IMG/VR virus record: IMGVR_UViG_3300036945_000956
DNA: 64,000 nucleotides
Origin: a virus
Lineage: Duplodnaviria > Heunggongvirae > Uroviricota > Caudoviricetes
Reading direction: 5' to 3' (one strand)
The position numbers and the translations under genes were made by a program. The notes under the pieces were generated by a model. That model was not told the DNA's origin, searched no databases, and worked only from the letters and a program-made list of their open reading frames with translations. Shown in pieces: positions 6,651 to 64,000 of the stretch (position 1 is its first letter; each line of letters opens with the position of its first letter).

Positions 6651-6657
6651 TTATTCC

Positions 6658-13521: not shown

Positions 13522-13530
13522 GTTTATTCC

Positions 13531-15234
13531 TTATACCGTATCATCAATTTGATTAATACTAATACCGCCGGTTGTCGGTGATGATTGTTTTTTAGTTGCA
13601 ATACCGGCAGTTGGTGGTTTTTCAATATTTGCTGCACCTTGAGTATCTGCTACGGTTGCAACAGAACCGTCATTAAGATGAACTTCAGTGCCTTTAATAG
13701 TGGCATTACCACCAGTTGCTTCAATTCCCACTGTTGCCGCATTTACATTGAAATTAGCACCTTTAACTGTAGTATCACCCACTGATTGTAATTGGATCCC
13801 TTCAGAAGATAGAACACCAACACCGCCTGCGGTTGCTGACAAGCCTACACGTGCAGACTTTATGTCTAATGATGTACCAGAGTTCAGTACAATATCACCA
13901 GCGGCTGCTATGTTAATGTTAGAGTTTGATGATATGCTTAAATCACCGACTGAGTGTAACTGAATACCACCATTTTCTACACGAATCGAATAACCACCAT
14001 CAGAAATATTTGTGGTATGACCACCGACCTGTTGTTCAAAGTCATTTATTGAAACTACATGTAAACGACCAATTGCCCCAATTGTTACATTACCATTTTG
14101 ATCTAATGCAATGTGAGCACCGCTCTTATGAATAATATTAATATGTTCATTGTTTTCACCATCACCACCATGCATTTCAATATACGAACCATTATAACTT
14201 GCATTAATTACTGTTGTATTATGTGATCCTCCAACAGCAAGACCTGGATGATAAAGATCACCAGTTGATTTTTGAAAGTTTGCAAGTGCTGGAGCTAGTG
14301 GTGTGTGATGAATGCCTTCACCAGTTCTCTGAGGCGGTAATGCACCCTGACCATATGATTCAATTGTTGATGATACTAATGGTGTATACGGTGCGGTTGA
14401 CGGAAGTGTTGATGTCACAATCCCTGGATCAGTGCCGGTAATTCTAAAATAGTCTTCCAACCAATTTTTTTGATATGTTGCCGAAGTTTGCCCACGATTT
14501 ACACTAAGTTGTTCGGCAGACATATTGCCTTGAGCATTTCCTGTAAACCAAACGTTTGGTATTGCAGCAACATTGTTATTATTCTTTGCAAGAATATCAT
14601 TTACATAGTGTCCGGCTACTGCATCTTGTATGGCTGGAGGTGCATCAGCTGCATGACTATATTCAGTACCAATACCTGCAGCTGTCGCACGTTCTTGCCA
14701 TGTCGAGTCAATAAATTGATAAGCACCTGAAGCTGTAGATCCTATAGCATTACCGTTTGCATCTCTCTCGACATATCTTGTTCCACCATTTTCAGCTGTG
14801 TAATCACCGCCTGATTCTCGAGCTTTAATTGTTCTAAGAACACCTTCTGCAGTACCTGAAACATATGCTGGTGTTGCATTATTCTGGGATTGATCATTAG
14901 CACTCATATCACCAACAGAGCCAGTAGGTTCTAATGTAGGAATCCCAAACTTTGGTGTTGGTATTACCCCAAAGATAAGTGGTTGTTGAGCATCACGTCC
15001 ATCAAGAAAAGCACCAAATACCAATTCACCAATGGCAAGTTTTGCAGAAACACTTACGTTATTAACAAGAACTGTTGCCCATGGTAAATCATCTGCACTA
15101 ACAGTGCCTTCTGCAATAGTAGGATGGAACCCAAAAGCTCTTACTTTTACACGGCCTTCGTGTTTAGGATCATTAATGCGCTGCACAATTCCCATAAACC
15201 AAGTAAGGTTATTTAAGCCCTCATATAATATCAT
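13531..15234 (-). CDS. 5: Baseplate hub and cell-puncturing protein gp5-like, with a central lytic-transglycosylase-like (GH23/SLT-type) domain and a C-terminal beta-helix
   Basis: N-terminal GIVQRINDPKHEGRVKVRAFGFHP resembles the T4 gp5 OB domain. The middle has RESGGDY...GSTASGAYQF.DSTWQ, which fits the E-S...GAxGxxQ SLT motif. The C-terminus is a GxxVxxG repeat beta-helix. Confidence 0.65.
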   Translation of the reverse strand: MILYEGLNNLTWFMGIVQRINDPKHEGRVKVRAFGFHPTIAEGTVSADDLPWATVLVNNVSVSAKLAIGELVFGAFLDGRDAQQPLIFGVIPTPKFGIPTLEPTGSVGDMSANDQSQNNATPAYVSGTAEGVLRTIKARESGGDYTAENGGTRYVERDANGNAIGSTASGAYQFIDSTWQERATAAGIGTEYSHAADAPPAIQDAVAGHYVNDILAKNNNNVAAIPNVWFTGNAQGNMSAEQLSVNRGQTSATYQKNWLEDYFRITGTDPGIVTSTLPSTAPYTPLVSSTIESYGQGALPPQRTGEGIHHTPLAPALANFQKSTGDLYHPGLAVGGSHNTTVINASYNGSYIEMHGGDGENNEHINIIHKSGAHIALDQNGNVTIGAIGRLHVVSINDFEQQVGGHTTNISDGGYSIRVENGGIQLHSVGDLSISSNSNINIAAAGDIVLNSGTSLDIKSARVGLSATAGGVGVLSSEGIQLQSVGDTTVKGANFNVNAATVGIEATGGNATIKGTEVHLNDGSVATVADTQGAANIEKPPTAGIATKKQSSPTTGGISINQIDDTV

Positions 15235-24655: not shown

Positions 24656-24689
24656 AGTATTTCCTTTAATTATATAAACATGTTTAAGT

Positions 24690-24996
24690 GAGCCCGTTAG
24701 GTTATACGGTGGAGCTCATACCGCAAGAGATTAAGCCGCTAGGCGAACCTCAGGTGCGAAATTTTCATTTGCCTTTAGTTTATTTAGCCGATACGAGGCC
24801 ATCCGGTAAACTCCACTCTATCTTCACACCTGTCGATCCTAATTTCGACCCCAGCAAAGATACACTACCAGACGGCGTAAAGCCTATCCCCGTGTCAAAA
24901 GACCATAAGCAGTGTATCTATGGTGGAGTCGTGCGGTACCGCCCCGCAGTCCAGAATGTGTCCATGTTGCTTCAATATTTACAAGTCTATTTATAA
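24690..24996 (-). ncRNA. ssrA: Circularly permuted (two-piece) tmRNA (ssrA)-like gene: acceptor piece followed by coding piece with a tag ORF
   Basis: On the minus strand, a T-arm UGCGG-GGCGGUA-CCGCA is followed by acceptor 3' strand CGACUCC, then A, then CCA (plus 24921 to 24950). After an intervening segment bracketed by the 9-bp inverted repeat AGAUACACU/AGUGUAUCU comes GGGGUCGAAAUUAGGAUCGACAGG (plus 24830 to 24853). That matches the tmRNA 5' consensus GGGGnnGAnnnnGGAUUCGACGGG, and its first 7 nt pair perfectly with CGACUCC. The downstream reading frame GCA AAU GAA AAU UUC GCA CCU GAG GUU CGC CUA GCG GCU UAA gives ANENFAPEVRLAA-stop (plus 24772 down to 24731). The GC content is far above the phage background. 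Confidence 0.6.
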
Positions 24997-25027
24997 CACC
25001 TTAATTAGTATATGTCAACCATTGTTT

Positions 25028-25327
25028 TCAAAGGTGTCCCCATGGTGTCCATGCTTTAGAATTATCAGTATCGGTAAAGTCATAGGTCTTTTCAAAGATG
25101 GCTTTATCACAAATATAAAGTTCAGCATCAATACCCATCATGAGATAGTCACCAGCTTTACCTTGCTTGTAATTACCTTCAAGAGTATTGACACGGAACT
25201 CTTCATGTATCTGTTTGGCATGAACAACAATAGGTCGTTTCATACAAGGTTGTAAATTATGCACATATTCATAAGTTTCAAACGTTTTCATATCAACCTC
25301 TATCATATCGCCTAATTGTTTCTTCAT
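25028..25327 (-). CDS. Hypothetical protein
   Basis: 99 aa ORF with the promoter cassette nearby (tatatgtcaacc at 25005 belongs to the downstream gene). Confidence 0.35.
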   Translation of the reverse strand: MKKQLGDMIEVDMKTFETYEYVHNLQPCMKRPIVVHAKQIHEEFRVNTLEGNYKQGKAGDYLMMGIDAELYICDKAIFEKTYDFTDTDNSKAWTPWGHL

Positions 25328-30466: not shown

Positions 30467-30778
30467 TTGTGCAGCAGCAACTGGATCTTTGTCAAGGATG
30501 AAAATATTAATTTTTTATTCCCCATATGTTTACATTAGTTTTATAATATAACCAGAACCAAATGTCAACAACTATTTTTGGTGAGTCTGATTTACGCCAA
30601 GAATACCGAGGATAACTGACTTGATGTGGTAGCATTCAAACTTCATCTTCTTTTTGCAGTTACACACGAAGCCGTCTGATAGCATTTCTACCTGAAACTG
30701 ACCATGTGGCCAGACAGTGCCGACTAACATATTGCCATCGGTGTTGATGTGTCTATGATTGAATGTCATTCAGTTCTC

Positions 30779-34995: not shown

Positions 34996-36369
34996 TCACA
35001 TTTTTTTCCACGACTTTTCAAAGTTACCAGCCATGATGTTACCATATGGCATGATACGATCAACAGTCACAGCCAAACCAAAACCCAACATATCAGCCTG
35101 AACAGTAGCAGCACTTTTGTAAGCACTTGGCAATTCACTGATGTCAGGTATTCCAGACCAGAACCGAGCATCAATACCACGAGTTTCCTGTGCTACCAAT
35201 TCGGCTTCAGACAAGGTCTGTTGACGAGCAAATTGTGAACGACTGAAGATACGACCGGCACCGTGTGGTGCAAAACCTATCTCATTGTCGGCATGTGCCT
35301 TAACAAACAAAATTGGCTCAGCCATGTTCATAGGAACAATTTGAGTGTCATATGGGTCACGCAACAAAGCAGTGTTAACAGGTGTAGAACCTTTGGCGTG
35401 ATATACCAATTGATCATCACTTGGGTCACGGAATACAAAGTTGTGTGGAGTAAAGATACGATCAGTACCAGAAACAGACAAACGACTCAACACAGCATCA
35501 TGCAAACTGTTATGGTTAGCACGAGTCCAATCGTGGGCAATCTCCAAAGCATCCCAATATTCAACACCTTCGTCAGTGTCCAATGGAATCCAGGCATTCT
35601 GCTTCAACGTTTTTGGGCTCATTTGAATCCGAAACTTTTCAGCAATCTCCATACCTTTTTTATAGATACCAGCGCCAAAACCACGGCTACCGAAGTGCGA
35701 GATCAACCAAACATCACCAGTGTTTTCACTACGGCCAACAGATATAAAATGGTTACCATCGCCAGAGGTGCGCAAATGACTCATAGAAGCATTTACAGTT
35801 TTTTGATCACGAGTAAAGCGGTTAACCAAAATGCGATCCAACAAACTCAAGTCAATTTGTTCAACAGGAGTCGAATGGCCACCAGGACCAAAGTGACTCA
35901 ATTCATGTGCAACATTCAATACATCCAAAGGATCAACATCACCGAAGTTGGTGGCACTCATAGAGCAACACACATCAGCTGAGTGCATGCCAGGATGGAT
36001 AGCATTACGAGTCACAACCATACCACCCACTGGGATAGTACCAATTGAACCTGCAGGACAAGCATCTGGCATTACCGAAGCACTTACAACTGTGGGAGTC
36101 TTGACCAATTCAGCCATAGTAGCCATTACAGCATTGTAGTTTGCGGTCTCGTATTCATCACCTTGTGACAAAAATACATTAATAGCAATATTGTCTTGCA
36201 ATGGCATATACACTGGTTCTACAGGCATATTTCGTTGGATAATGTCAGCCAAGACAGAGTCATCAACTACAGCAATCTGACGCAATTCTTTCAGGATCTT
36301 ACCGATATGTGGACCTGGCTTTACACCACGGTCAATCAAATCTTTGCCAGTCCAAACATATTGTTCCAT
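34996..36369 (-). CDS. rtcB: RtcB RNA 3'-phosphate/5'-OH ligase
   Basis: ASVMPDACPAGSIG, GDGNHF, PHNF and HGAGR match the RtcB catalytic motifs. 457 aa. Confidence 0.8.
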   Translation of the reverse strand: MEQYVWTGKDLIDRGVKPGPHIGKILKELRQIAVVDDSVLADIIQRNMPVEPVYMPLQDNIAINVFLSQGDEYETANYNAVMATMAELVKTPTVVSASVMPDACPAGSIGTIPVGGMVVTRNAIHPGMHSADVCCSMSATNFGDVDPLDVLNVAHELSHFGPGGHSTPVEQIDLSLLDRILVNRFTRDQKTVNASMSHLRTSGDGNHFISVGRSENTGDVWLISHFGSRGFGAGIYKKGMEIAEKFRIQMSPKTLKQNAWIPLDTDEGVEYWDALEIAHDWTRANHNSLHDAVLSRLSVSGTDRIFTPHNFVFRDPSDDQLVYHAKGSTPVNTALLRDPYDTQIVPMNMAEPILFVKAHADNEIGFAPHGAGRIFSRSQFARQQTLSEAELVAQETRGIDARFWSGIPDISELPSAYKSAATVQADMLGFGLAVTVDRIMPYGNIMAGNFEKSWKKM

Positions 36370-44005: not shown

Positions 44006-44050
44006 TGGTTACATATACTTTATAAAACAATTCAAAGCAAATGTCAACAA

Positions 44051-44374
44051 CTATTTTTGTAAAAAGAATAATATAAGCCAAAAGGCTGACATTATTGTGA
44101 ACACACTCACAGCAATAAAGATTTGTCCATTAACTGCATCTCTCAAGTCTCGTTTTACTTTTTGAGTTGTATTAATTTGTTCTTGTAACATTCTATAATA
44201 TTTCTGGGACTCAGTTCGAGCTTGAGTAACCAGCTGTGCCCACTGCTCGTCTCGCTCTTGGTCAATTGGTGCATCAGCTTTCAAACCTTTCTTGCGAGCC
44301 ATGCGAAGGCAAGCAATAGCTTCATCTTCGGAAGTGGTGCTTAGAGCCTTGGCTATTAGTTGATTAGCACTCAT
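44051..44374 (-). CDS. Hypothetical membrane-anchored protein (C-terminal TM)
   Basis: 107 aa. C-terminal IFIAVSVFTIMSAFWLILFFL. Confidence 0.35.
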   Translation of the reverse strand: MSANQLIAKALSTTSEDEAIACLRMARKKGLKADAPIDQERDEQWAQLVTQARTESQKYYRMLQEQINTTQKVKRDLRDAVNGQIFIAVSVFTIMSAFWLILFFLQK

Positions 44375-47892: not shown

Positions 47893-48007
47893 GTAAGGTC
47901 CTCCTAGACCTGTTGCCTACATATATTTTATATACCAACCAAAACCAAATGTCAACAACTATTTTGTCTCATTTTGCAATTATCACCGTGCCATCTGTTA
48001 TGGTTTC

Positions 48008-49830: not shown

Positions 49831-50084
49831 GCCACAATGTGGACAGGGTGTTGGTCGCCAATCTGTGTTGTTTATTTAGTTTACCTCATATTCAAATGTT
49901 TGAGTTTCATATCCTTGGCTTTCATACCAGTCAGAGATGTATCCTGCAAATTTTGGATCGGATTCAACACGTTGACCAATCTTGATCAAACCTTCGTAGA
50001 TAGCAATCACATAACGTTTCATCATATATCCTTTGTTCATAATCATAAGTAAGTTATACCATAAACAAAACCAAATGTCAACAA

Positions 50085-50306
50085 CTATTTTACCTGAAAT
50101 GTACCAATTGGGCTATTCAGTGCAATTTGGAACTGCTCAAACATTTCGGGTGACATACCAACTTCCTTAAAGTTTTCAGAATCTTCATCCCACTGTCGGA
50201 TGATAACAATATCCTCATACAAATAGATTTGTACATCTTCATAGAATCCACCATCATCTAGAATTGTTACAATTGTTTCATCATGATCCATTTCATTTGT
50301 GAACAT
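50085..50306 (-). CDS. Hypothetical acidic protein
   Basis: 73 aa. Confidence 0.3.
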   Translation of the reverse strand: MFTNEMDHDETIVTILDDGGFYEDVQIYLYEDIVIIRQWDEDSENFKEVGMSPEMFEQFQIALNSPIGTFQVK

Positions 50307-56416: not shown

Positions 56417-56911
56417 CTACAACACTTCACTTCTTGATGAACCTCGGCCATGAGCAATACCATCAGCACCAAACGAAGCAGCCCATGACTCAGGTTTTAG
56501 TTTTGGAACAATACCAGTCATGCCAAGAACGTAACCGGCCGCTTCACTTGCAGCACAATTAGAACCATATTTAGGATCTGTATTAATATCAAGATGCAGT
56601 TCAACTTCAAATTCGTCAATAAAAGGCGCCAATTGAGTATATAGTTCACATACCTTTTGTACTTCTTTCATCATTCTCATCTTAGGTCTATTTGCTTTTA
56701 GATCATAGTTGGCTTCATGTGATATATGTGAGAAGATACGACAACCATTCTTACCATTCATATGAACAATAGCAACAGTAGCATACCTAGCCATAGCACG
56801 ATTATGTTTATCTACATATCGTACCGAATCACAACCTAGATATACCTTTGTTTCAGGATTCAATCCAATCAACAGATTCACCATATCTTCAATTTGTTTT
56901 TCAGTAAGCAT
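56417..56911 (-). CDS. Hypothetical protein, possible RNase H-like fold
   Basis: KVYLGCDS ... MRMMKE ... LHLDINTD resembles a D-E-D arrangement. Weak call. Confidence 0.3.
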   Translation of the reverse strand: MLTEKQIEDMVNLLIGLNPETKVYLGCDSVRYVDKHNRAMARYATVAIVHMNGKNGCRIFSHISHEANYDLKANRPKMRMMKEVQKVCELYTQLAPFIDEFEVELHLDINTDPKYGSNCAASEAAGYVLGMTGIVPKLKPESWAASFGADGIAHGRGSSRSEVL

Positions 56912-57040: not shown

Positions 57041-57457
57041 TTAGCCAGCACTACGAGTAATAAAGTTAACTCGAACCTTAGTTGGCTTGAAGTATTTGTC
57101 AATAACATCTTGTGCAATGCCAATATCAACTGGTTTACAAGAGAAGATGTCAATATATGCATCGCCATTGGAATCAACAAGGTGACCGGTAATATTACTA
57201 GTTTCAATCATTTGACAGAAGCTAATACCTGCTTTATCAGCCGCATGAGTAGCAAAGTGTTCGATCATTGGCTCGCCAAAGGCTACCATGTCGATTGCAG
57301 GAACAAGTTCTTTGATAAACTTGTAAACATTTTCTTTGCTAGTGATAAGATCTTTATCACAAGCAGCGCAATCAAACATTGCCATATAACCCCAGTATGC
57401 CATTGAAACTCCTAATAATGAAAAATGGTGCCCCAGGTAGGAATCGAACCCACACAC
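57041..57457 (-). CDS. speD: S-adenosylmethionine decarboxylase proenzyme (SpeH-type, class 1A); probable start at the internal MAYWGY
   Basis: GYMAMFDCAAC resembles SpeH HLVAEFYECD. ...IETSNITGHLVDSNGDAYIDIFSCK resembles [23 protein letters not shown]. Confidence 0.55.
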   Translation of the reverse strand: MCGFDSYLGHHFSLLGVSMAYWGYMAMFDCAACDKDLITSKENVYKFIKELVPAIDMVAFGEPMIEHFATHAADKAGISFCQMIETSNITGHLVDSNGDAYIDIFSCKPVDIGIAQDVIDKYFKPTKVRVNFITRSAG

Positions 57458-57579: not shown

Positions 57580-57773
57580 ATTAAGTGTCTGTCTCTCCAG
57601 ACTGTCACATCAGCCCCAGAAGGCGTTTACCCGATGTTTGGTAGGTAGCTTCATATATTCGCACTTCACAAATTTATTACAGGATGGTCTGTGTGTGCAT
57701 TGAATGTACTATCTAACCATCTACAATAAGATCTTACGATCATGCTTGGTGGCAGTATCCATCCTAATCTTAT

Positions 57774-58229: not shown

Positions 58230-58621
58230 TTTATTCTCCTAAATTGATTTCAAATTGGTTTCATGTTACAGTCCAATTTAGGGTGGTTTAGTAATCTACA
58301 AGTTATCACTCATTGTGATTCTCCTTTTTTAGAATTTCTTCGTATTTAGATACGACAACATCCAGTTCATCAACCTGTTTAACACTTTCTTCTGTGAACT
58401 TAAGATCACCTGATTTAATTTTAGTCATCATAGATTCAAGTCTATCAGCCATATTTTGTAGAGTCACAGTTAGTTCTCCTTGTTAATATCCAATATATCA
58501 GCCATGTCATGATTCACATCAGCATGACCTTGTTCATCAGCTCTTACACACAAAACAACATCACGCAAGGCCAATCTGGTAAGTTGTGATTTAGATACGA
58601 CATAAATTAGCCTTTCTTTAA

Positions 58622-58697
58622 TGGTGGGTCTACTGGGACTCGAGCCCAGATTGTTCGTTTTAGAGGCGATTGCATACACCGTTCATGCTCTAGACCC
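58622..58697 (-). ncRNA. tRNA-like element with an aberrant anticodon arm (possible tRNA pseudogene or noncanonical tRNA)
   Basis: Perfect acceptor GGGTCTA/TAGACCC-A-CCA, D-stem GCAT/ATGC and T-arm CTGGG-CTCGAGT-CCCAG. No 5 bp anticodon stem can be drawn. Confidence 0.35.
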
Positions 58698-58829
58698 AAA
58701 TTTGGGATGCCCTATACTTCCCGATATGACAGTCAGCATTTGATTTCTTCCATAGCCGACATCCAACTATAGCATATACCGTTACTAATTACTCTACTCT
58801 ATCAACGATCTAACTTTGAGTAGAAATTC

Positions 58830-59345
58830 TTATGTTATTTTTATCAATGTGCGGTTATGAATTCGTTGGATATTGTAACCGCCGGCAAGGATAGTGCGGA
58901 TATTGATATGATGATCACCAACGTTGAAACTACCTTCATAACCATCACTCATGTGTGTCAGATCAAAGTCAGGAATAGTCTCAATATTCTTCTTACGCAG
59001 AGCCGAGATGATTTGCAAATCACGTTTTGCAATAAGAGCATTCGTATTCTTCATCATGTTCTCAAGGCCACCGGCAAGACCACGATCGGCAATCAAATTC
59101 ATCATGGATTGACTACCCCAGTACTTGATCACTTCAGGACCACGCAATTTGTAATCCATACGGCCTGTATGTTGAGCATCCCATTCCTTCATATGAGGTT
59201 GGAAACCTTTGATCTTTTTCTCTGCCCATTCTTGGTCAGACTTAATCAGTTTGGCATTCAACTCTGCAAACGCTTTAGTGATCTTGGCTTGCATATCTTT
59301 TTCAATTGAAAAGGTCGAGAAATTTGATACGGTCATGGCGAACAT
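58830..59345 (-). CDS. Hypothetical protein (171 aa)
   Basis: ORF 40 nt downstream of a promoter cassette (taatgtcaacaac at 59385). Confidence 0.4.
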   Translation of the reverse strand: MFAMTVSNFSTFSIEKDMQAKITKAFAELNAKLIKSDQEWAEKKIKGFQPHMKEWDAQHTGRMDYKLRGPEVIKYWGSQSMMNLIADRGLAGGLENMMKNTNALIAKRDLQIISALRKKNIETIPDFDLTHMSDGYEGSFNVGDHHINIRTILAGGYNIQRIHNRTLIKIT

Positions 59346-59401
59346 CTCCTGTTGATATAATACTTATATATCACATAGAAAGTAATGTCAACAACTATTT
59401 T

Positions 59402-59493
59402 TGGCGGATCGTGTAGGATTTGAACCTACGGTAGAACTTTTGCCCTACGACGGTTTAGCAAACCGCTGATTTAAACCACTCATCCAACGATCC
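59402..59493 (-). tRNA. tRNA-Ser (GCU), long variable arm
   Basis: Acceptor GGATCGT/ACGATCC-G-CCA. Anticodon loop TTGCTAA. Long variable arm. T-arm GTAGG-TTCAAAT-CCTAC. Confidence 0.7.
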
Positions 59494-59608
59494 AATTCTT
59501 CATATGAAGGATACACCGGTCTTAATCCACCAGACATCGGTTCATCCACGTACACGCGGCAGCCATAAGCAAGACGATCGAGCACGCTTCACGGTGTATC
59601 CATGATAT

Positions 59609-59686
59609 AAAGAATATTGGTGCCTTCGGTGAGATTCGAACTCACACTAGACCGCTTTTGAGGCAGTCGCCTCTACCAGGTTGGGC
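59609..59686 (-). tRNA. tRNA, type I, anticodon loop CUCAAAA (reads as CAA by position; identity uncertain)
   Basis: Acceptor GCCTTCG/CGAAGGC-A-CCA. T-arm GTGAG-TTCGAAT-CTCAC. Confidence 0.5.
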
Positions 59687-60283
59687 TACGAAGGCATTAC
59701 GTATTTCTTTGTTATGGATTTTCTTGATCATGTCATCACGCATATCAATGCAGACGCAGCACCAACACTTATCCACCTTTGTCTTCTTGCCGTGCATATT
59801 GATATTGGCAGCGGCAGGATGATTTAGTGATCCGCGTGGCTTGTGATCACGATTGCGACCACGACCATAGACTGGAGATTTAGCCATTGTAATCCTCATC
59901 AGTTGCTTTATAGTAATCATCCATGCGCTTTTCTTGCATTGTCTTGCTTTTCCAGTGCTTGCGAGGATTGCCGCACATATAACAAGAACAATTATGTGGA
60001 GTATGCGCCAGTTGACCAATAGACGATTCATCAAGTGGTCGCCATTTGGAAAAGATCTTAACAACCCATTTCTTTTTCTTCAACTCTTGAAACCGCCGAA
60101 AAGCTCTATCACGCATTAGACTCTCCTATAGCATTTAACAGAATGTTTGGGGAAAGCTAAGATTACTCTTAGCGGCACCTTGCCATACTCCCCATCAAAG
60201 ATACACTGTTTGGATTCAAACCTTGTTCTAGTCTTGTCGATCTGCGCTTCTCACAGTGCTGACAGAGTATCTATGGTGGGGAG

Positions 60284-60916
60284 TTAGTTAAATTTAAGTT
60301 TTCTTCCGATTGACCAACCATTTGGTATTAATTGATCTCTATTTATTTTTTTACTTTGTTTTAATTCTATAGAATGAATCCACATTGTCCCATATTGTGA
60401 ATTGTTAGGACCTTTTTGATGATCAATTTTATCATATGTCAGTTTCTTTTTTTCAATAGCTTCTGGTGCACGTGAAGCTTCGTTTGCAATACGTCTAACA
60501 TTGGGATCAAAAAATCCTAATTGTTTTTCTTTAAGAGTTTTAATCGTTTTAGAATTACCTTTTCTTTTATCTAAAGATTGTTGGAATTCTGGCGATCTGA
60601 ATGGATTTTTAGCTTCACCTAACTCATTATTTATATAACCCCAACCGCCTCTGCCACCAGCACAAAGATTGTATGTATTTTCTTTTAAACAAAACTCTTC
60701 AGTTACTAACTCCGCTTCTTTAGCGTCCATATCAGATTCATTATCAAATTGGAAGAGTATTTCTTTTTCAAAATTCTCAATTCCATATTTTTTAATAGAT
60801 TCCTTTATCAACTTACCTGAACCCATATAACCATCATTGAGGTTCCGAGTTTGATGCTTACCAACATAAATTTTGTTATTCACTTTGTTTGTTATTTTAT
60901 AAATCGTATAGAACAT
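60284..60916 (-). CDS. GIY-YIG homing endonuclease (Seg-like)
   Basis: FYTIYKITNKVNNKIYVGKHQT ... YMGSG. Late promoter TATAAATA at 60941 to 60948 and SD AAGGAG. Confidence 0.7.
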   Translation of the reverse strand: MFYTIYKITNKVNNKIYVGKHQTRNLNDGYMGSGKLIKESIKKYGIENFEKEILFQFDNESDMDAKEAELVTEEFCLKENTYNLCAGGRGGWGYINNELGEAKNPFRSPEFQQSLDKRKGNSKTIKTLKEKQLGFFDPNVRRIANEASRAPEAIEKKKLTYDKIDHQKGPNNSQYGTMWIHSIELKQSKKINRDQLIPNGWSIGRKLKFN

Positions 60917-61116
60917 TCAATTACTCCTTGCATATCAGTATTTATAATACTATTTATTTCATAGGAGTATCGGAATCGAACCGATAGTTTTTGTTTTCTT
61001 GCTGTAAACATTCTAAATTAGTATTGCTAGGGGTTTCGGACGCTCCCTATTACGCAGCACTACGCTACTCGACTTACGCCTAAGTCTGGGTCTGTTAGTT
61101 CCGGCCTAGCAATTTT

Positions 61117-61194
61117 TGGTGCCTCTAGTCGGATTCGAACCGACACTGTATGGCTTCTAAGACCATTGCCTGCTACCAATTGGGCTACAGAGGC
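61117..61194 (-). tRNA. tRNA, type I, anticodon loop CUUAGAA (UAG by position; identity uncertain)
   Basis: Acceptor GCCTCTG/TAGAGGC-A-CCA. T-arm GTCGG-TTCGAAT-CCGAC. Confidence 0.5.
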
Positions 61195-61199
61195 ATATT

Positions 61200-61273
61200 T
61201 GGTAGTCTGTGAGGGAATCGAACCCACGTAGTCGCCGTGTAAAGACGATGTTCTACCATTGAACTAACAGACC
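61200..61273 (-). tRNA. tRNA-Val (UAC)
   Basis: Acceptor GGTCTGT/ACAGACT-A-CCA. D-stem GTTC/GAAC. Anticodon stem TCGTC/GGCGA with loop TTTACAC. Confidence 0.65.
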
Positions 61274-61416
61274 ATAATTGCTGGAGTCGACGTGATAATT
61301 CAATCGACTCCGAAACCCTTTTGTGCACATGGTACATAGGGAAATTTGGTGAAGTGGATTTACGTCGTATGCCACTTCGGTGTTGAGATTTCGACACGGA
61401 GTACTCAACGTATATT

Positions 61417-61490
61417 GGCGATCTATGGGGTAATCGAAACCCCGCCCTCGGATAGACAATCCGGTACGCTACCACTACGTCAATAGACCA
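61417..61490 (-). tRNA. tRNA-Asp (GUC) probable
   Basis: Acceptor GGTCTAT/ATAGATC-G-CCA. T-arm GGGGT-TTCGATT-ACCCC. Anticodon loop TTGTCTA on a 4 bp stem. Confidence 0.55.
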
Positions 61491-61495
61491 ATTTT

Positions 61496-61570
61496 GGAGC
61501 GGAGAATGGGAATCGAACCCACGACCTTCTCGTTGGCAACGAGTGGCTCTACCTCTGAGCTACCTCCGCA
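61496..61570 (-). tRNA. tRNA-Gly (GCC)
   Basis: GCGGAGGTAGCTCAGAGGTAGAGC...TTGCCAA loop...GTGGGTTCGATTCCCAT...CTCCGCTCCA. Confidence 0.65.
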
Positions 61571-61778
61571 ATTTAATTCTGGTGTCGATCTTCCTGCAAA
61601 TCCTGAGAAGGAATTTAACGATTTTACCAGCAGGCCGTCGATCATAAAGTAAAAATCTCGGTTATAAATACACCGCCAGAAACTGAATATGATGGAATAA
61701 CGAGCATCGGCCATGAACCGATAGTCTTTTTAGTTTCCATGTCAATACTTTGTAAACTCTGACACAACCATCATAACT

Positions 61779-61853
61779 TGGTGGAGAATGGGGGATTCGA
61801 ACCCCCGACTCAAGCGTGCAAGGCTAGTGTTTTCCCGATTAGACTAATTCCCC
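61779..61853 (-). tRNA. tRNA (anticodon not resolved by eye)
   Basis: Acceptor GGGGAAT/ATTCTCC-A-CCA. T-arm GGGGG-TTCGAAT-CCCCC. Confidence 0.5.
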
Positions 61854-62053
61854 GTTATTTGTTGTTTCTCATAAAGAATGAACACTTCTTAAAGTTTTCA
61901 AGACCTATCTCTTTGATAGTTGCCACAAACGCGGCAATTAATGCTTCTTCTCGTGTCATTGTTCATTCCTTTTAATTTAACAGGATCGTTTTGTCCGCTA
62001 AGACATCATTGCATTGATTTAGCGTTTTGGTTTGCTGAACCGATCCTAAACTA

Positions 62054-62144
62054 TGGCGGAGAGTGTGAGATTCGAACTCACGGAACGCTATTAACGTTCG
62101 GTAGTTTTCAAGACTACAGGCATAATCCTCTCGCCCAACTCTCC
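62054..62144 (-). tRNA. tRNA-Ser (UGA), long variable arm
   Basis: Acceptor GGAGAGT/ACTCTCC-G-CCA. Anticodon stem GTAGT/ACTAC with loop CTTGAAA. Variable arm CGAACGTTAATAGCGTTCC. Confidence 0.7.
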
Positions 62145-62151
62145 GTATATT

Positions 62152-62227
62152 TGGCTCCTGAGGAGGGTTACGATCCCCCGACCAACGAGTTAACAGCTCG
62201 GCGCTCTACCAACTGAGCTACTCAGGA
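62152..62227 (-). tRNA. tRNA-Asn (GUU)
   Basis: TCCTGAGTAGCTCAGTTGGTAGAGC...CTGTTAA loop...CTCAGGAGCCA. Confidence 0.65.
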
Positions 62228-62299
62228 ACATTGGTTATAATATGAAGGGCGACTATATCCTTCATCATTTTACCCTGACTAGCAGGTCTGCGCTGTATT

Positions 62300-62375
62300 T
62301 GGTTGCGGTGGGACGGACTCGAACCGTCGATCTACTGGTTATGAGCCAGTCAAGATGCCTCTTCTCTACCCCGCA
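62300..62375 (-). tRNA. tRNA-Met/Ile-like (CAU anticodon), slightly irregular acceptor and T-arm junction
   Basis: Anticodon stem ACTGG/CCAGT with loop CTCATAA. D-stem GAGA/TCTT. T-arm GACGG-TTCGAGT-CCGTC. The acceptor has 1 mismatch and an extra nucleotide. Confidence 0.5.
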
Positions 62376-62714
62376 AAACTTAATTTGAAAATGCTTTGGT
62401 CGACTCACCGATTCGAACGGTTAAGTAACTAGTGTAGTATCCACATACCTACGCCAAAGAATGCACTAGACTCATTTTCAAAACTCTGTTTTCAACGATA
62501 CACCACCAAAGCGTCTTTCTGGGCATAACCAGCGACCACCATGTCTACTCGCTTACATCTTTCGAATGGCGCACGAGGTATATCTGTGAAAACAGAATTT
62601 CTTCTGTTTCTCTCTATTATCGACCGAAGTCTAAGAGTAATTCTAAATTGTCAAAGAGCAAGTAGTAAGGTTGTTTTTCATTCCCTATGTGTTATATATA
62701 TCATATATGGAATG

Positions 62715-62745
62715 GATGTCAACAACTATTTTTGTTTTTTACATT
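62715..62745 (-). promoter_or_regulatory. Early promoter cassette upstream of the tRNA cluster
   Basis: ggatgtcaacaactatttttg, the same -35 and UP context as the other copies, oriented toward the tRNAs. Confidence 0.5.
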
Positions 62746-63243
62746 TATTTTTTAACAGGATCAACTTTTTGCTACGTGTGCTAACCATTACACTAGTGAC
62801 CCATTTGGCGCCACTTGGGATTCGAACCCAAACTCCGATCGTTCAATGATATGCTATTTGTTGCTGTAATGATCCTAAAATTTTACGTTTGTTGTAGATA
62901 TGGTTTAATTTCCCAGAGACCATCGGTCACTGTAACACAAAAGTGTTTAGTCCCCAATGTCACGATCCATCTTTTATTCATTCGAGTATCTCCAAAATTA
63001 TGTAGCCACGACCCATTACAGGTCGTAGCGAGCATTCATCAATCAAAGTCTTGATAAGAGGTGCCGATAATCTTATCAGAGCCACCATACTTATCAAGCA
63101 TTTTTTCAAATTCTTTACGATGATCAACTTTTGGTTCAGCTTCAGGTTTTTTCTTTTTCTTTAAAAAATCCTTAAACTTATCTATTGTTCTTTTCATTCA
63201 GACACCTTTAAAGGAAATTCCAGCTATGACTATTTATACAGTC

Positions 63244-64000
63244 TTAGTAATCATACCGAGCATTAAGTAATGTACGACACATGACGTTGTAAGGAGTGTA
63301 ATCCTCAAGGTCGTTTGCAAGAACACTCTTCATGATGGAAGGAGAGAAACCAGACACAAGCGCAGTGCCGTTCTTGTCGAACTTAACTGGAGTGTTGCCA
63401 TTTTCTTTGCCATACATTGACAAGTTCCAGAAAACGATCTTAGGAAGATCATAGCCTGCATCCTTATACTTTCGCTTGATCATCTGCATTGCAGAGTCAT
63501 CATAGCGAGTGCAAGAATCGAACTGCATGTCAGACAATACCAACATCATGTCAGGCATATCTTTCTGAGCCACTTTACCCTTGACAGCAATCTTCAGGAT
63601 TTCATCAAATGCTGCGTGTAGGTTGGTGTTCATTTGCCAAGAAGATGTTGACATTTGATCCATCTTCTGAGACAGGGTGCCTTTCAGATGCAACATTTCT
63701 GGGTGTCCAGAGAAGGTCAAGAACAAGTCTTTGAATGCACCAGTGTTCTTGCTTGCGCAGTAAAGACCAAGGGAAACAGCAATGTCGATTGGTTGTAGAG
63801 CGCTACCTGTTGAGTAGTGAAGCGAACCCATAGAACCAGAGACGTCGACCATAGGCAGAACCTTTGCATCGCCGATGTAGTTAGGCAGAGCTTTCCATTG
63901 TTCATCAGCGACAGCTTTGTTACCCTTGATCACAGACTTCACAACATCATACGGATATACCGCACCAGCGTTAATCTTGACCTTTGGATCACGTTCTGCT
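63244..64000 (-). CDS. von Willebrand factor A (vWA) domain protein, 5' partial (continues past the window end); CobT-like C-terminal domain possible
   Basis: MIDAS motif VDVSGSMG (DxSxS). The frame stays open upstream of the GTG at 63942 through to position 64000. Confidence 0.5.
   Translation of the reverse strand, partial: AERDPKVKINAGAVYPYDVVKSVIKGNKAVADEQWKALPNYIGDAKVLPMVDVSGSMGSLHYSTGSALQPIDIAVSLGLYCASKNTGAFKDLFLTFSGHPEMLHLKGTLSQKMDQMSTSSWQMNTNLHAAFDEILKIAVKGKVAQKDMPDMMLVLSDMQFDSCTRYDDSAMQMIKRKYKDAGYDLPKIVFWNLSMYGKENGNTPVKFDKNGTALVSGFSPSIMKSVLANDLEDYTPYNVMCRTLLNARYDY

What the first reader, a model, noticed from the sequence alone, without database searches (positions are those of the whole stretch)
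60961..61116. Orphan tRNA 3' halves and other structured RNAs inside the tRNA cluster
Five structured elements sit in or near the cluster. First, 60961 to 60987 encodes a perfect T-arm (ATCGG-TTCGATT-CCGAT) plus acceptor 3' strand but no matching 5' half. An 8 bp long-range stem TTGCTAGG/CCTAGCAA (61022 to 61116) encloses about 70 nt. Second, 62795 to 62845 is another isolated T-arm plus acceptor 3' strand (TTGGG-TTCGAAT-CCCAA-GTGGCGC) without a 5' half. Third, 61285 to 61416 holds three consecutive hairpins with stems of 8, 7 and 6 bp. Fourth, 59494 to 59608 is closed by a 10 bp long-range stem GGATACACCG/CGGTGTATCC. Fifth, 58622 to 58697 is tRNA-like with a broken anticodon arm. T4 carries stable RNAs C and D in its tRNA cluster. 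These may be analogous small RNAs, split or intron-containing tRNAs, or decoys for host anticodon nucleases.
Basis: seen in the sequence. Interest (0 to 1): 0.55.

Follow-up and report, generated by a model that had tools for sequence, protein, structure and literature searches.

The report
Phage Y RNAs mistaken for tRNA halves
The two "orphan tRNA 3' halves" are parts of tRNA-mimicking Y RNAs that sit beside a phage Ro60-like RNA-binding protein gene, and one of them has been split by a mobile endonuclease gene, so they extend a known RNA class into T4-like phages and are not broken tRNAs.

Summary
All five sequence observations are real. They are several different things.

- **Both isolated T-arms (62815-62831 and 60969-60985, minus strand)** belong to YrlA-type Y RNAs, which are circularly permuted tRNA mimics. 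The order is T-arm, then an acceptor-like hairpin, then a D-arm, so the partner strand lies downstream, not upstream.
- **Shared closing module.** Each RNA is closed by a conserved stem followed by a CNGCAA motif. A covariance model of this module finds 144 copies in 48 related phage loci, all on the strand of a neighbouring gene.
- **The neighbouring gene.** Its predicted fold matches Ro60 crystal structures (Pfam calls it DUF2828+DUF7788). In the window it occupies 63244-64000.
- **Copy Y3 (60136-61017)** is interrupted by a 684-nt GIY-YIG homing-endonuclease cassette, which is why its T-arm looks orphaned.
- **Element 5 (58622-58697)** is a conserved tRNA with a CUA anticodon.
- **Still unclassified:** 61023-61113, 61274-61415 and 59497-59613 are stable structured spacers with no informative relatives.

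No Rfam family matches the Y RNAs. The same module occurs next to this gene in mycobacteriophage LeBron, Listeria phage A511 and Salmonella phage FelixO1.

Verdict: a new variant of a known kind, of moderate to high interest.

The parts
63244..64000 (-). C-terminal 251 codons of a Ro60-like RNA-binding protein gene. The full gene is 475 aa in L001, the same phage. It has a helical N-domain and a vWA/MIDAS C-domain.
   Evidence: PHROG 850 'RNA-binding protein', E = 1.4e-69. Pfam DUF2828+DUF7788, no TROVE match. The AlphaFold model of homolog P0110 (pLDDT 80.8) has Ro60 structures 9KOP, 2NVO, 1YVP, 9NEN, 2I91 and 1YVR as its top 7 PDB matches, aligned over the full length.
62750..62885 (-). Y1, a YrlA-type Y RNA and the finding's element 2. 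Closing stem AGGAUCA (62876-62870) pairs with UGAUCCU (62763-62757). The motif ACAGCAAC follows the 5' strand. T-arm 62831-62815, acceptor-like hairpin 62814-62796, UA junction, D-arm GUGU-AAUGGUUA-GCAC 62793-62778.
   Evidence: Model R1 scores 40.3 bits, E = 2.7e-8. In the alignment of 29 relatives, 22 pairs are 91.5% paired against 63% in shuffles, and 17 pairs show compensatory changes. It lies about 360 nt downstream of the Ro60-like gene on the same strand.
62717..62729 (-). ATAGTTGTTGACA box, probably the -35 and upstream part of a phage promoter, directly after the 3' end of Y1.
   Evidence: Six exact copies in the window, all on the minus strand. At up to 2 mismatches there are 14 matches against 3.8 expected. 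Its role as a promoter is inferred.
61978..62050 (-). It has the same closing stem and a UUCAGCAA motif around one hairpin (CGCUAA...UUAGCG).
   Evidence: Model R1 scores 55.3 bits, E = 2.7e-12. Fold z = -2.9. Orthologs occur in L003, L004, L009, L010, L012, L014, L015 and L016.
60964..61017 (-). Y3, 5' piece, which holds the finding's element 1 T-arm. It comprises the closing-stem 5' strand AGAAUGUUU, the motif ACAGCAAG, the T-arm AUCGG-UUCGAUU-CCGAU (60985-60969) and the first 5 nt (ACUCC) of the acceptor-like stem.
   Evidence: 91-96% identical to intact orthologs in L015, L010 and L014. Junction mapped.
60280..60963 (-). Mobile cassette of 684 nt inserted at the junction of the T-stem and the acceptor-like stem of Y3. 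It carries a TATAAATA late-promoter-like box, a hairpin that pairs ACUCCU with the AAGGAGU ribosome-binding site, and a Seg-like GIY-YIG homing endonuclease ORF (60284-60916). It is flanked by a direct ACTCC repeat.
   Evidence: Pfam SegE_GIY-YIG and GIY-YIG. Absent from six intact orthologs. RBS hairpin fold z = -2.2. Related endonuclease genes in other loci also sit right after T-arm sequences.
60136..60283 (-). Y3, 3' piece. It comprises a 20-bp acceptor-like stem with a variable tip, a D-like hairpin GGCA-AGG-UGCC, an extra 7-bp hairpin, and the closing-stem 3' strand AAACAUUCU followed by GUUA.
   Evidence: Fold z = -4.5. With the cassette removed the RNA aligns end to end with six orthologs. 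The consensus has 46 pairs, 21 of them with compensatory changes.
58622..58697 (-). tRNA with anticodon CUA (amber-suppressor type), an encoded CCA and a weak anticodon stem. This is the finding's element 5.
   Evidence: Rfam tRNA 44.4 bits. ARAGORN calls a cta-anticodon tRNA at the syntenic position in 5 of 5 relatives. The alignment keeps the loop CUCUAAA.
57677..57768 (-). Possible fourth, divergent Y-module RNA. Closing stem AGGAUGG/CCAUCCU followed by GUAA, but ACUGCCA in place of the CAGCAA motif.
   Evidence: Model R1 scores 17.8 bits, E = 0.028 over the whole window. Fold z = -2.2. Weak.
61023..61113 (-). Unclassified structured RNA-like element, the second half of the finding's element 1. 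It has a 9-bp closing stem and two internal hairpins, directly after tRNA-Leu(UAG).
   Evidence: Fold z = -1.8. 97% identical copy at the same position in L004. An exact-word scan found no other relative. No match to R1 or Rfam.
61274..61415 (-). Unclassified spacer with four stable hairpins between tRNA-Asp and tRNA-Val, the finding's element 3.
   Evidence: MFE -39.2 kcal/mol, z = -3.8. Found only in the identical contig L001.
59497..59613 (-). Unclassified element E4, the finding's element 4. A two-tier helix of about 20 bp (outer 9-11 bp, 3x3 internal loop, inner GGAUACACCG/CGGUGUAUCC) encloses about 70 nt, between tRNA-Leu(CAA) and tRNA-Ser(GCU).
   Evidence: Fold z = -2.1. It shares architecture and the inner-stem words GAUAYACC/GGUGUAUC with 62485-62598. 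No relatives in the 80 loci.
62485..62598 (-). Unclassified element E6, a possible paralog of E4. It has a two-tier helix of about 20 bp, and its interior contains UUCGAAAG.
   Evidence: MFE -38.8 kcal/mol, z = -3.75; 0 of 200 shuffles fold as well. Motif pair found. Interior similarity to E4 is weak.

Best explanation
The two isolated T-arms are parts of genes for YrlA-type Y RNAs. These are non-coding RNAs in which a tRNA-like body is circularly permuted. The T-arm comes first, its 3' side runs into an acceptor-like stem that is closed by a loop, and the D-arm follows.

The two ends of the RNA pair in a 7-10 bp stem. On the 5' side the stem is followed by a conserved unpaired (U/A)(U/A)CNGCAA. 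On the 3' side it is preceded by an A-rich run and followed by GUU. I infer that this stem-and-motif module is the binding site for the Ro60-like ring protein encoded next door. I also infer that the tRNA-like body is the effector end, either tethering or sequestering a tRNA-recognising host or phage factor. This is by analogy with bacterial Rsr-YrlA-PNPase particles.

The window holds one intact long copy (Y1), one short hairpin copy (Y2), and one long copy (Y3) whose gene was invaded by a GIY-YIG homing-endonuclease cassette. The cassette sits exactly between the T-stem and the acceptor-like stem, which separates the T-arm from its partner by 684 nt.

Shown here: the architecture, the covariation, the strand-specific link to the protein gene, the Ro60 fold of that protein, and the insertion. 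Inferred: RNA-protein binding, expression, and the biological role.

Element 5 is an ordinary, conserved CUA-anticodon tRNA. The remaining three elements are stable structured spacers of unknown kind.
For: - **Architecture.** Read on the minus strand, Y1 is T-arm, then the hairpin GUGGC...GUCAC, then UA, then the D-arm GUGU-AAUGGUUA-GCAC, all inside a closing stem.
- **Covariation.** In 29 such RNAs from diverged phages, 22 pairs in four helices are 91.5% paired against 63% in shuffles and 35-45% when slid. The covariation score is 0.713 against 0.185, and 17 pairs show double changes.
- **Closing module, tested without assuming pairing.** Of 570 CAGCAA words on the protein's strand, 220 have the upstream 7-mer complemented within 300 nt. 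The figures are 29 of 555 on the other strand and 15-26 of 570 for displaced 7-mers. There are 89 different stem sequences.
- **Model R1.** It gives 144 hits at E <= 1e-3 in 48 loci, all on the protein's strand, clustered just upstream and downstream of the gene and between tRNA genes. In the window it gives 55.3 and 40.3 bits.
- **Protein.** The AlphaFold model (pLDDT 80.8, pTM 0.71) has as its best PDB matches Thermus phage Ro60 9KOP (E = 2e-8, TM 0.57), D. radiodurans Rsr 2NVO, Xenopus Ro60 1YVP/1YVR and human Ro60 9NEN.
- **Y3.** Six orthologs without the cassette are contiguous. With the cassette removed, the window copy aligns end to end, giving 46 pairs of which 21 show compensatory changes.
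- **Same module beside the homologous gene in cultured phages.** Mycobacteriophage LeBron has three copies, and the middle one is a textbook YrlA with a 7-bp acceptor-like stem. Listeria phage A511 has three tandem copies just upstream of the gene. FelixO1 has three copies between tRNA genes.
- **Published context.** YrlA architecture and its location near Ro60 on the same strand are described in PMC4201824. Three very abundant transcripts lie within 2 kb upstream of, and in the same direction as, the Rsr-like gene of the A511-like phage CKA15 (PMC12282133).
Against: - Pfam does not call the protein TROVE, and sequence identity to solved Ro60 structures is only 12-18%.
- The bacterial YrlA 5' motif GNCGAAN0-1G is absent; the conserved motif here is CNGCAA.
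- Rfam 15 gives no match at E <= 10.
- There is no expression or binding data for this phage.
- The D-stem (78% paired) and the acceptor-like stem (84% paired) are less clean than the other helices, partly because of alignment.
- The sequences in A1 and A5 were picked by a rule that required a closing stem, so counts for that helix are circular. The motif-anchored test and the strand bias are the independent checks.
- Y3 may be inactivated by the insertion.
- Model R1 found nothing within 6 kb of the homologous gene in KVP40 or Citrobacter phage Ci1.
Confidence: 0.75

Rival explanations
1. The isolated T-arms are dead remnants of ordinary tRNA genes, left by recombination or by homing-endonuclease activity in the cluster.
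For: A homing endonuclease gene does lie directly beside one T-arm. Related endonuclease genes in other loci sit next to tRNA 3' ends.
Against: Both T-arms lie inside longer RNAs that are conserved across phages whose neighbouring protein is only 55-90% identical. Compensatory changes occur in four helices. The 'missing' partner strand is present downstream. The six intact orthologs of Y3 are not tRNAs.
Confidence: 0.04
2. They are split, permuted or intron-containing tRNA genes that are processed into working tRNAs.
For: A permuted order (3' half before 5' half) is known for some tRNA and tmRNA genes. M. smegmatis YrlA is cut by RNase P and receives CCA (PMC4201824). In Citrobacter phage Ci1, tRNA-like genes carry the CAGCAA motif in the anticodon position together with a free GCCA end.
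Against: Y1 has no anticodon arm. The hairpin in Y3 at that position has a 4-nt loop. The GCCA in the acceptor-like loop of Y1 is not kept in orthologs L003 and L004. ARAGORN and the Rfam tRNA model do not call them. No group I or II intron match was found.
Confidence: 0.04
3. The same RNAs exist, but their job is to act as decoys or baits for host tRNA-cleaving defence nucleases. Alternatively, they present damaged-tRNA-like substrates to the phage RtcB ligase. In both cases the role is not to tether Ro60 to an exonuclease.
For: The family displays different tRNA parts in different members: T, acceptor-like and D arms; D, anticodon and T arms without an acceptor stem; or an anticodon-like stem-loop alone. 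About 35 of 178 unique members carry a 5-bp stem with a YU-NNN-R-N loop that is not a T-loop, against 1.6 for any such hairpin in shuffles. The commonest loops are Thr-UGU, Lys-UUU and Tyr-GUA types. The phage also encodes RtcB, and A511 has RtcB and another RNA ligase close by.
Against: This is pure inference, with no functional data. The window's own copies (Y1-Y3) carry no anticodon-like loop. Many of the counted loops are orthologs of one RNA. The library search found no report of such decoys.
Confidence: 0.15
4. The three unclassified elements (61023-61113, 61274-61415, 59497-59613, plus 62485-62598) are processing spacers, such as RNase III or RNase E sites for maturing the polycistronic tRNA transcript, or are stable RNAs analogous to T4 RNAs C and D.
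For: They lie between tRNA genes on the transcribed strand and fold better than shuffles (z from -1.8 to -3.8). E4 and E6 have helices of about 20 bp with a small internal loop, a shape typical of RNase III substrates (established knowledge).
Against: There are no relatives beyond near-identical contigs, so no covariation test was possible. There are no Rfam matches.
Confidence: 0.4

Closest known systems
YrlA (Y RNA-like A) of bacteria and mycobacteriophages (Chen et al. 2014, RNA 20:1715, PMC4201824)
   Same: It is encoded within a few hundred nucleotides of a Ro60-type gene on the same strand. The 5' and 3' ends pair. The internal module runs (V)-T-arm, acceptor-like stem-loop, D-arm, with tRNA-like conserved bases: GUUCGAAUC in the T-loop, GG in the D-loop, and a UA junction before the D-stem. 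Several Y RNAs occur per locus. The copy in mycobacteriophage LeBron found with my model is a classical YrlA with a 7-bp acceptor-like stem.
   Different: The conserved single-stranded motif is CNGCAA directly after the closing stem, not GNCGAAN0-1G. The partner protein is not recognised as TROVE by Pfam. Copies are scattered through a phage tRNA cluster. The inner module is swapped freely between tRNA-part types. One copy carries a homing-endonuclease insertion.
YrlB, D. radiodurans Yrn2 and Thermus phage phiLo Yrl1/Yrl2 (short Y RNAs; PMC4201824, PMC12135203)
   Same: These are short stem-bulge-stem RNAs next to the Ro60 gene that accompany a longer tRNA-like Y RNA. The phiLo RNAs were shown to bind the phage Ro60 and host PNPase. 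Y2 (61978-62050) has this simple form.
   Different: The phiLo RNAs were identified through a CGAA motif in a large internal bulge. Y2 has UUCAGCAA next to the stem. No binding data exist here.
Phage T4 segB and other Seg GIY-YIG homing endonucleases (own knowledge of the T4 tRNA region)
   Same: It is a free-standing GIY-YIG endonuclease gene lodged in a phage tRNA-gene region, with a TATAAATA late-promoter-like box and a hairpin over its ribosome-binding site.
   Different: Here the cassette lies inside a structured RNA gene, at a helix junction, not between genes. Cleavage specificity was not tested.
Two-piece (permuted) tmRNA
   Same: The T-arm and acceptor strand are encoded ahead of the 5' acceptor strand. 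A genuine permuted tmRNA exists elsewhere in the window (24687-25036).
   Different: Y1-Y3 have no tag reading frame, no pseudoknots and no Rfam tmRNA match. The only signal is a 15-nt T-loop fragment scoring 10.9 bits.

Membership tests
YrlA-type Y RNA | Encoded within about 4 kb of a Ro60 ortholog, on the same strand | tested here: met
   Y1 ends about 360 nt downstream of the gene's stop at 63244, and Y2 and Y3 lie 1.2-3 kb downstream, all on the minus strand. All 144 model hits in 48 loci lie on the gene's strand.
YrlA-type Y RNA | Order T stem-loop, then acceptor-like stem-loop, then D stem-loop, enclosed by pairing of the 5' and 3' ends | tested here: met
   Four helices are supported by covariation in 29 sequences. 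The Y3 class has the same order plus one extra hairpin.
YrlA-type Y RNA | tRNA-like conserved nucleotides in the T and D arms that allow tertiary contacts (T-loop UUCRAnY, D-loop GG, U8/A9-like junction) | tested here: met
   Invariant GGTTC.A..CC columns and a near-invariant TAG...GG...A pattern in alignment A5. The Levitt 15:48 pair was not scored.
YrlA-type Y RNA | GNCGAAN0-1G motif near the 5' end, the proposed Rsr contact | tested here: not met
   The motif is absent from Y1-Y3. The invariant motif in A1 and A5 is CAGCA(A), with CCGCAA, CUGCAA and CGGCAA variants.
YrlA-type Y RNA | Bound by the Ro60/Rsr protein; carries tRNA modifications | not testable with these tools
   Needs immunoprecipitation or gel-shift assays, and modification mapping.
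Ro60/Rsr (TROVE + vWA) protein | HEAT-repeat ring plus a C-terminal vWA domain with a MIDAS motif | tested here: met
   The model is helical over residues 1-230 and alpha/beta over 240-440. Ro60 structures are the top 7 full-length PDB matches. A DxSxS motif (VDVSGSM) is conserved.
Ro60/Rsr (TROVE + vWA) protein | Match to the Pfam TROVE model or sequence similarity to solved Ro60 | tested here: not met
   Pfam gives only DUF2828 and DUF7788. phmmer against PDB sequences finds nothing at E <= 0.01.
tRNA (element 5, 58622-58697) | Cloverleaf scoring above the Rfam RF00005 gathering score, with a 7-nt anticodon loop | tested here: met
   44.4 bits against a gathering score of 29. The loop is CUCUAAA and a CCA is encoded. 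ARAGORN calls the orthologs.
Split or intron-containing tRNA | A 5' half with matching acceptor strand, D-arm and anticodon arm that can be joined to the 3' half, or a recognisable intron | tested here: not met
   No anticodon arm is present. There is no ARAGORN call and no intron family in Rfam. The 684-nt interruption is almost entirely an endonuclease reading frame.
GIY-YIG (Seg-like) homing endonuclease | N-terminal GIY-YIG catalytic domain; present or absent between otherwise collinear genomes | tested here: met
   Pfam PF19835 and PF01541 pass their cut-offs. The cassette is absent from six orthologous loci. Nuclease activity was not tested.

The most novel reading that the evidence does not exclude
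Many tailed phages (T4-like, FelixO1-like, Herelleviridae, mycobacteriophages) carry a modular family of Ro60-docking RNAs. One constant docking stem with a CNGCAA motif displays interchangeable pieces of tRNA: the whole elbow, a body without an acceptor stem, or just an anticodon stem-loop of a particular tRNA. These RNAs would serve as baits, decoys or repair platforms against host tRNA-cleaving defence nucleases, working with the phage's own tRNAs, RtcB ligase and tmRNA.
Probability: 0.15. Interest if true: 0.85.

Novelty: new variant of a known kind. Interest (0 to 1): 0.6.

Why it matters
Y RNAs and Ro60 are well studied in animals and in a few bacteria, but the job of the tRNA-like end of bacterial Y RNAs is still unknown.

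This work shows a simple sequence-and-structure signature, a closing stem plus CNGCAA. It picks out several such RNAs per genome in hundreds of phage contigs and in well-known laboratory phages (A511, FelixO1, LeBron). No Rfam family covers them, and genome annotation either skips the regions or, as in Citrobacter phage Ci1, labels a nearby tRNA-like gene a 'pseudo-tRNA'.

Three practical consequences follow:
- It gives genetically tractable phage systems for asking what Ro60-Y RNA particles do.
- It offers an identity for the three abundant unexplained transcripts seen upstream of the Rsr-like gene in an A511-like Listeria phage.
- It warns that 'tRNA fragments' in phage tRNA clusters may be functional mimics.

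The endonuclease-split copy is a natural experiment on whether such an RNA tolerates a large insertion at a helix junction.

Tried and rejected
- **Rfam 15.** I scanned the cluster at E <= 5, the region 62380-63250 at E <= 10, and the whole window at gathering scores. Only tRNAs and the tmRNA appeared; there was no Y RNA, intron or other family.
- **Close relatives among deposited phages.** A megablast and a blastn search of 58500-63200 found only tRNA and endonuclease similarity.
- **Relatives through the 171-aa ORF 58830-59345.** None found.
- **Recoded amber codon as an explanation for the CUA tRNA.** Reading-frame statistics fit the standard code.
- **Loose pattern scan for the stem module.** It was not specific, giving about 20 chance hits per window, so I replaced it with a covariance model.
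- **Model hit at 62590-62647 (15.1 bits).** I rejected it as a member because it lacks the motif and overlaps the outer stem of E6.
- **E4 and E6 as paralogs.** Their closing helices are alike, but MAFFT found no convincing interior similarity. I left them unclassified.
- **More relatives of 61023-61113.** An exact 18-mer scan of viral contigs returned only the contig already held as L004.
- **Consensus promoter and terminator scan of the cluster.** Not above chance.
- **Supplementary list of the 22 phages in Chen et al. 2014.** Not held in the library. I therefore could not check which phage YrlAs were already reported.
Full report
**Setting.** The window comes from a T4-like myovirus. It has baseplate wedge and hub proteins by PHROG, a G+C content of 37% and standard stop-codon use. 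No close relative exists among deposited phages. All RNA genes of the cluster lie on the minus strand. ARAGORN finds 12 tRNAs between 57426 and 62375, so every element of the finding has to be read as its reverse complement.

**Check of the observation.** Each of the five descriptions is correct at the stated coordinates, with small adjustments.
- The T-arm ATCGG-TTCGATT-CCGAT and following strand are at 60987-60961.
- The TTGCTAGG/CCTAGCAA stem is 9 bp (61023-31 with 61105-13).
- The second T-arm, TTGGG-TTCGAAT-CCCAA-GTGGCGC, is at 62831-62808.
- 61274-61418 folds into four hairpins with z = -3.8.
- GGATACACCG/CGGTGTATCC is present and is extended by an outer stem, with z = -2.1.
- 58625-58697 scores 44.4 bits as a tRNA, with two mismatched anticodon-stem pairs.

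Perfect T-arm-like hairpins occur 14 times in the window against 1.7 expected in shuffles. Eleven lie on the minus strand of the cluster: nine in called tRNAs plus the two 'orphans'.

**The neighbouring protein.** The reading frame that runs off the window end (63244-64000, minus strand) matches PHROG 850, 'RNA-binding protein'.
- In contig L001, which is 100% identical to the window over the shared part, the gene is 475 codons. Pfam assigns DUF2828 and DUF7788 and no TROVE domain. There is no sequence match to any solved structure.
- I predicted the structure of a 440-residue homolog from a 70-sequence alignment. The model has pLDDT 80.8 and pTM 0.71.
- Its seven best PDB matches are all Ro60 proteins aligned over the full length. 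They are Thermus phage phiLo Ro60 (9KOP, E = 2e-8, TM 0.57), D. radiodurans Rsr (2NVO), Xenopus Ro60 (1YVP, 1YVR, 2I91) and human Ro60 (9NEN). Isolated vWA domains follow.
- The family occurs in 711 deposited phage records, including KVP40, FelixO1, A511, CPX and phiM7. It also includes mycobacteriophages, where it is annotated 'Ro-like RNA binding protein'.
- The window also encodes an RtcB ligase (34996-36369).

**What the 'orphan' at 62795-62845 is.** On the minus strand the T-arm is followed at once by a hairpin (GUGGC-loop-GUCAC), then UA, then a D-arm (GUGU-AAUGGUUA-GCAC). The whole is enclosed by AGGAUCA...UGAUCCU.

This is the order that Chen et al. (2014) describe for YrlA. [quoted passage not shown] The 'missing 5' half' was sought on the wrong side.

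**Comparative evidence.** A search with the window's protein fragment returned 252 related viral contigs, of which 80 were fetched.
- A conserved module recurs in them: UUUAG(G/A)AU-nnnn-(U/A)(U/A)CAGCAA ... A-rich-nnnn-AU(C/U)CUGUU.
- The pairing was tested without assuming it. Of 570 CAGCAA words on the protein's strand, 220 have their upstream 7-mer complemented within 300 nt. The figures are 29 of 555 on the opposite strand and 15-26 of 570 for displaced 7-mers. There are 89 different stem sequences.
- A covariance model was built from 66 short members (A1, R1). It gives 144 hits at E <= 1e-3 in 48 loci, all on the protein's strand, mostly just upstream or downstream of the gene and between tRNA genes.
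- For 29 long members including the window copy, four helices (closing, T, acceptor-like, D) are 91.5% paired against 63% in shuffles and 35-45% when the partners are slid. Seventeen of 22 pairs show compensatory changes.
- A caveat applies. The sequences were chosen by a rule that required a closing stem, so counts for that one helix are circular. The T, acceptor-like and D helices were not part of the rule.

**Copies in the window.** Model R1, run without filters over both strands, gives the following.

| Coordinates (minus strand) | Score | Assessment |
|---|---|---|
| 62753-62879 | 40.3 bits | Y1 |
| 57677-57768 | 17.8 bits, E = 0.028 | Divergent candidate |
| 62590-62647 | 15.1 bits | Rejected |
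| 60933-61017 | 13.8 bits | Partial hit; the 5' half of a third copy |

**The 'orphan' at 60961-60987.** BLAST of the spacers against the loci showed two conserved blocks, 60964-61019 and 60121-60208. They lie about 70 nt apart in L015, L010, L014, L019 and L023, but 755 nt apart in the window.
- The intact orthologs are 180-230-nt RNAs. Each has the closing module, a T-arm, a 20-bp acceptor-like stem with a variable tip, a D-like hairpin and one further hairpin.
- With 684 nt removed (60963-60280), the window sequence aligns end to end with six orthologs. The consensus has 46 pairs, 21 with compensatory changes.
- The insert is flanked by an ACTCC repeat and sits exactly between the T-stem and the acceptor-like stem.
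- It consists of a TATAAATA box, a hairpin that pairs ACUCCU with the AAGGAGU ribosome-binding site, and a GIY-YIG Seg-like endonuclease frame.
- Related endonuclease genes in other loci also sit right after T-arm sequences.
- Whether the split RNA still works is unknown. Both halves are 95-96% identical to L015, which suggests a recent event.

**Cultured phages.** Model R1 finds three tandem copies just upstream of the Ro-like gene of Listeria phage A511. It finds three copies between tRNA genes downstream of the gene in FelixO1, and three copies just downstream of LeBron gp53.
- The middle LeBron copy is a textbook YrlA with a 7-bp acceptor-like stem, and it has AGCAGCAAUUAA after its closing stem.
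- A transcriptome study of the A511-like phage CKA15 reported three very abundant unexplained RNAs within 2 kb upstream of its Rsr-like gene, in the same direction. Its authors raised the Y RNA possibility (PMC12282133).
- Nothing was found near the gene in KVP40 or Ci1 at E <= 1. Ci1, however, has tRNA-like genes with a CAGCAA-bearing insert in the anticodon position.

**Element 5.** This is a tRNA with loop CUCUAAA (anticodon CUA) and an encoded CCA. ARAGORN missed it in the window but calls the ortholog at the same position in five of five relatives. The weak anticodon stem is a shared trait.

**Unresolved elements.** 61023-61113 has one 97% identical relative at the same position in L004 and no other. 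61274-61415 and 59497-59613 have none. 59497-59613 and 62485-62598 share a two-tier helix of about 20 bp and the inner-stem words GAUAYACC/GGUGUAUC, but little else. They may be RNase III-type processing helices or stable RNAs. No test was possible.

**Mechanism.**
- Shown: a family of structured RNAs with a constant closing module and tRNA-like inner modules, genetically linked in a strand-specific way to a Ro60-fold protein.
- Inferred, from the Xenopus Ro60-Y RNA structure and from the phiLo Ro60-Yrl complexes (PMC12135203): the closing stem and the CNGCAA strand dock on the protein ring, and the tRNA-like module engages another factor.
- The tether model (Rsr-Y RNA-PNPase) is the default by analogy.
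- The decoy or repair-platform model is suggested by members that display anticodon-like stem-loops and by the co-occurrence of RtcB. It is untested.

**Novelty.** Phage YrlAs (22 phages in Chen et al. 2014) and a phage Ro60 with two Y-like RNAs (phiLo) are known. Iyer et al. (2021) note that some jumbo phages have a TROVE protein 'with a tRNA-like partner'.

I found no description of the following in the searchable library:
- the CNGCAA module;
- its multi-copy, modular spread through tRNA clusters of T4-like, FelixO1-like and Herelleviridae phages;
- a homing-endonuclease-split copy.

No Rfam family covers these RNAs. One published defining feature, the GNCGAA motif, is not met. I therefore rate this a new variant of a known kind.

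Noticed in passing
window 24687-25036 (-): A permuted (two-piece) tmRNA gene of the alphaproteobacterial type, with tag peptide ANENFAPEVRLAA. Rfam scores are tmRNA_permuted 99.6 bits and alpha_tmRNA 86.7 bits. This hints at an alphaproteobacterial host.
   Followed up: partly
window 58622-58697 (-); L015:10310-10384, L010:14653-14730, L014:16037-16114, L004:14964-15038, L003:14789-14866: A CUA-anticodon (amber-suppressor type) tRNA is conserved at the same place in all relatives checked. Each has an encoded CCA and mismatches at anticodon-stem pairs 27:43 and/or 31:39. The phage nevertheless appears to use the standard code; 15 of 109 long ORFs end in TAG.
   Followed up: partly
loci L001-L080, e.g. 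L049:1464-1526, L039:2366-2427, L057:986-1054, L001:9130-9212: About 35 of 178 unique module RNAs carry a 5-bp stem with a 7-nt YU-NNN-R-N loop that is not a T-loop and looks like a specific anticodon stem-loop. The commonest loops are CUUGUAA (Thr-UGU), CUUUUAA (Lys-UUU) and CUGUAAA (Tyr-GUA). Shuffles give 1.6 for any such hairpin. Other members are tRNA bodies (D, anticodon and T arms) in which the acceptor stem is replaced by the closing module.
   Followed up: partly
L083:4690-4960 (Listeria phage A511), L082:6719-7408 (FelixO1), L084:6452-6706 (mycobacteriophage LeBron): Three copies of the module lie beside the Ro-like gene in each of these laboratory phages. None is annotated. The A511 trio matches the position of three abundant unexplained transcripts reported for the related phage CKA15.
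   Followed up: partly
L085:7880-8125 (Citrobacter phage Ci1): Two tRNA-like genes lie downstream of the Ro-like gene, and part of the stretch is annotated 'tRNA-Pseudo'. The first has normal acceptor, D and T arms and a GCCA end, but a long insert containing UACAGCAAAAC replaces the anticodon arm. This is the inverse topology of the window's RNAs.
   Followed up: no
window 62717-62729, 59386-59398, 50076-50088, 47950-47962, 44042-44054, 30563-30575 (all -): Six exact copies of ATAGTTGTTGACA, all on the minus strand. This is probably the -35 region plus upstream element of this phage's early promoters. One copy lies directly after Y1 and one directly after tRNA-Ser(GCU).
   Followed up: partly
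window 62380-62470 (-): Another T-arm-like hairpin (ACCG-UUCGAAU-CGGU, 62425-62411). It is preceded by a D-arm-like hairpin (GGUAU-GUGG-AUACU) and closed by CUUUGG..CCAAAG, with no anticodon arm. ARAGORN, Rfam and model R1 do not call it, and its fold is no better than shuffles (z = 0).
   Followed up: partly
window 56417-56911 (-) and L081:7476-8006 (KVP40): A PF04308 RNase H-like (DUF458) gene lies at the far end of the tRNA/Y RNA cluster in the window. In KVP40 it is the immediate downstream neighbour of the Ro-like gene, so the two genes may be functionally linked.
   Followed up: no
window 57041-57400 (-): An S-adenosylmethionine decarboxylase-like ORF (Pfam AdoMet_dc, E = 5.5e-17) lies inside the tRNA cluster, abutting tRNA-Thr.
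   Followed up: no
L048:4526-5134, 6226-6825, 13234-13782; L024:12896-13507; L071:2419-3036: Seg-like GIY-YIG endonuclease genes 40-46% identical to the window's sit repeatedly just after tRNA T-arm/acceptor sequences. Most are preceded by a GTATAAATAGT box and a hairpin over the ribosome-binding site. This suggests a lineage of endonucleases that target T-arm regions.
   Followed up: partly
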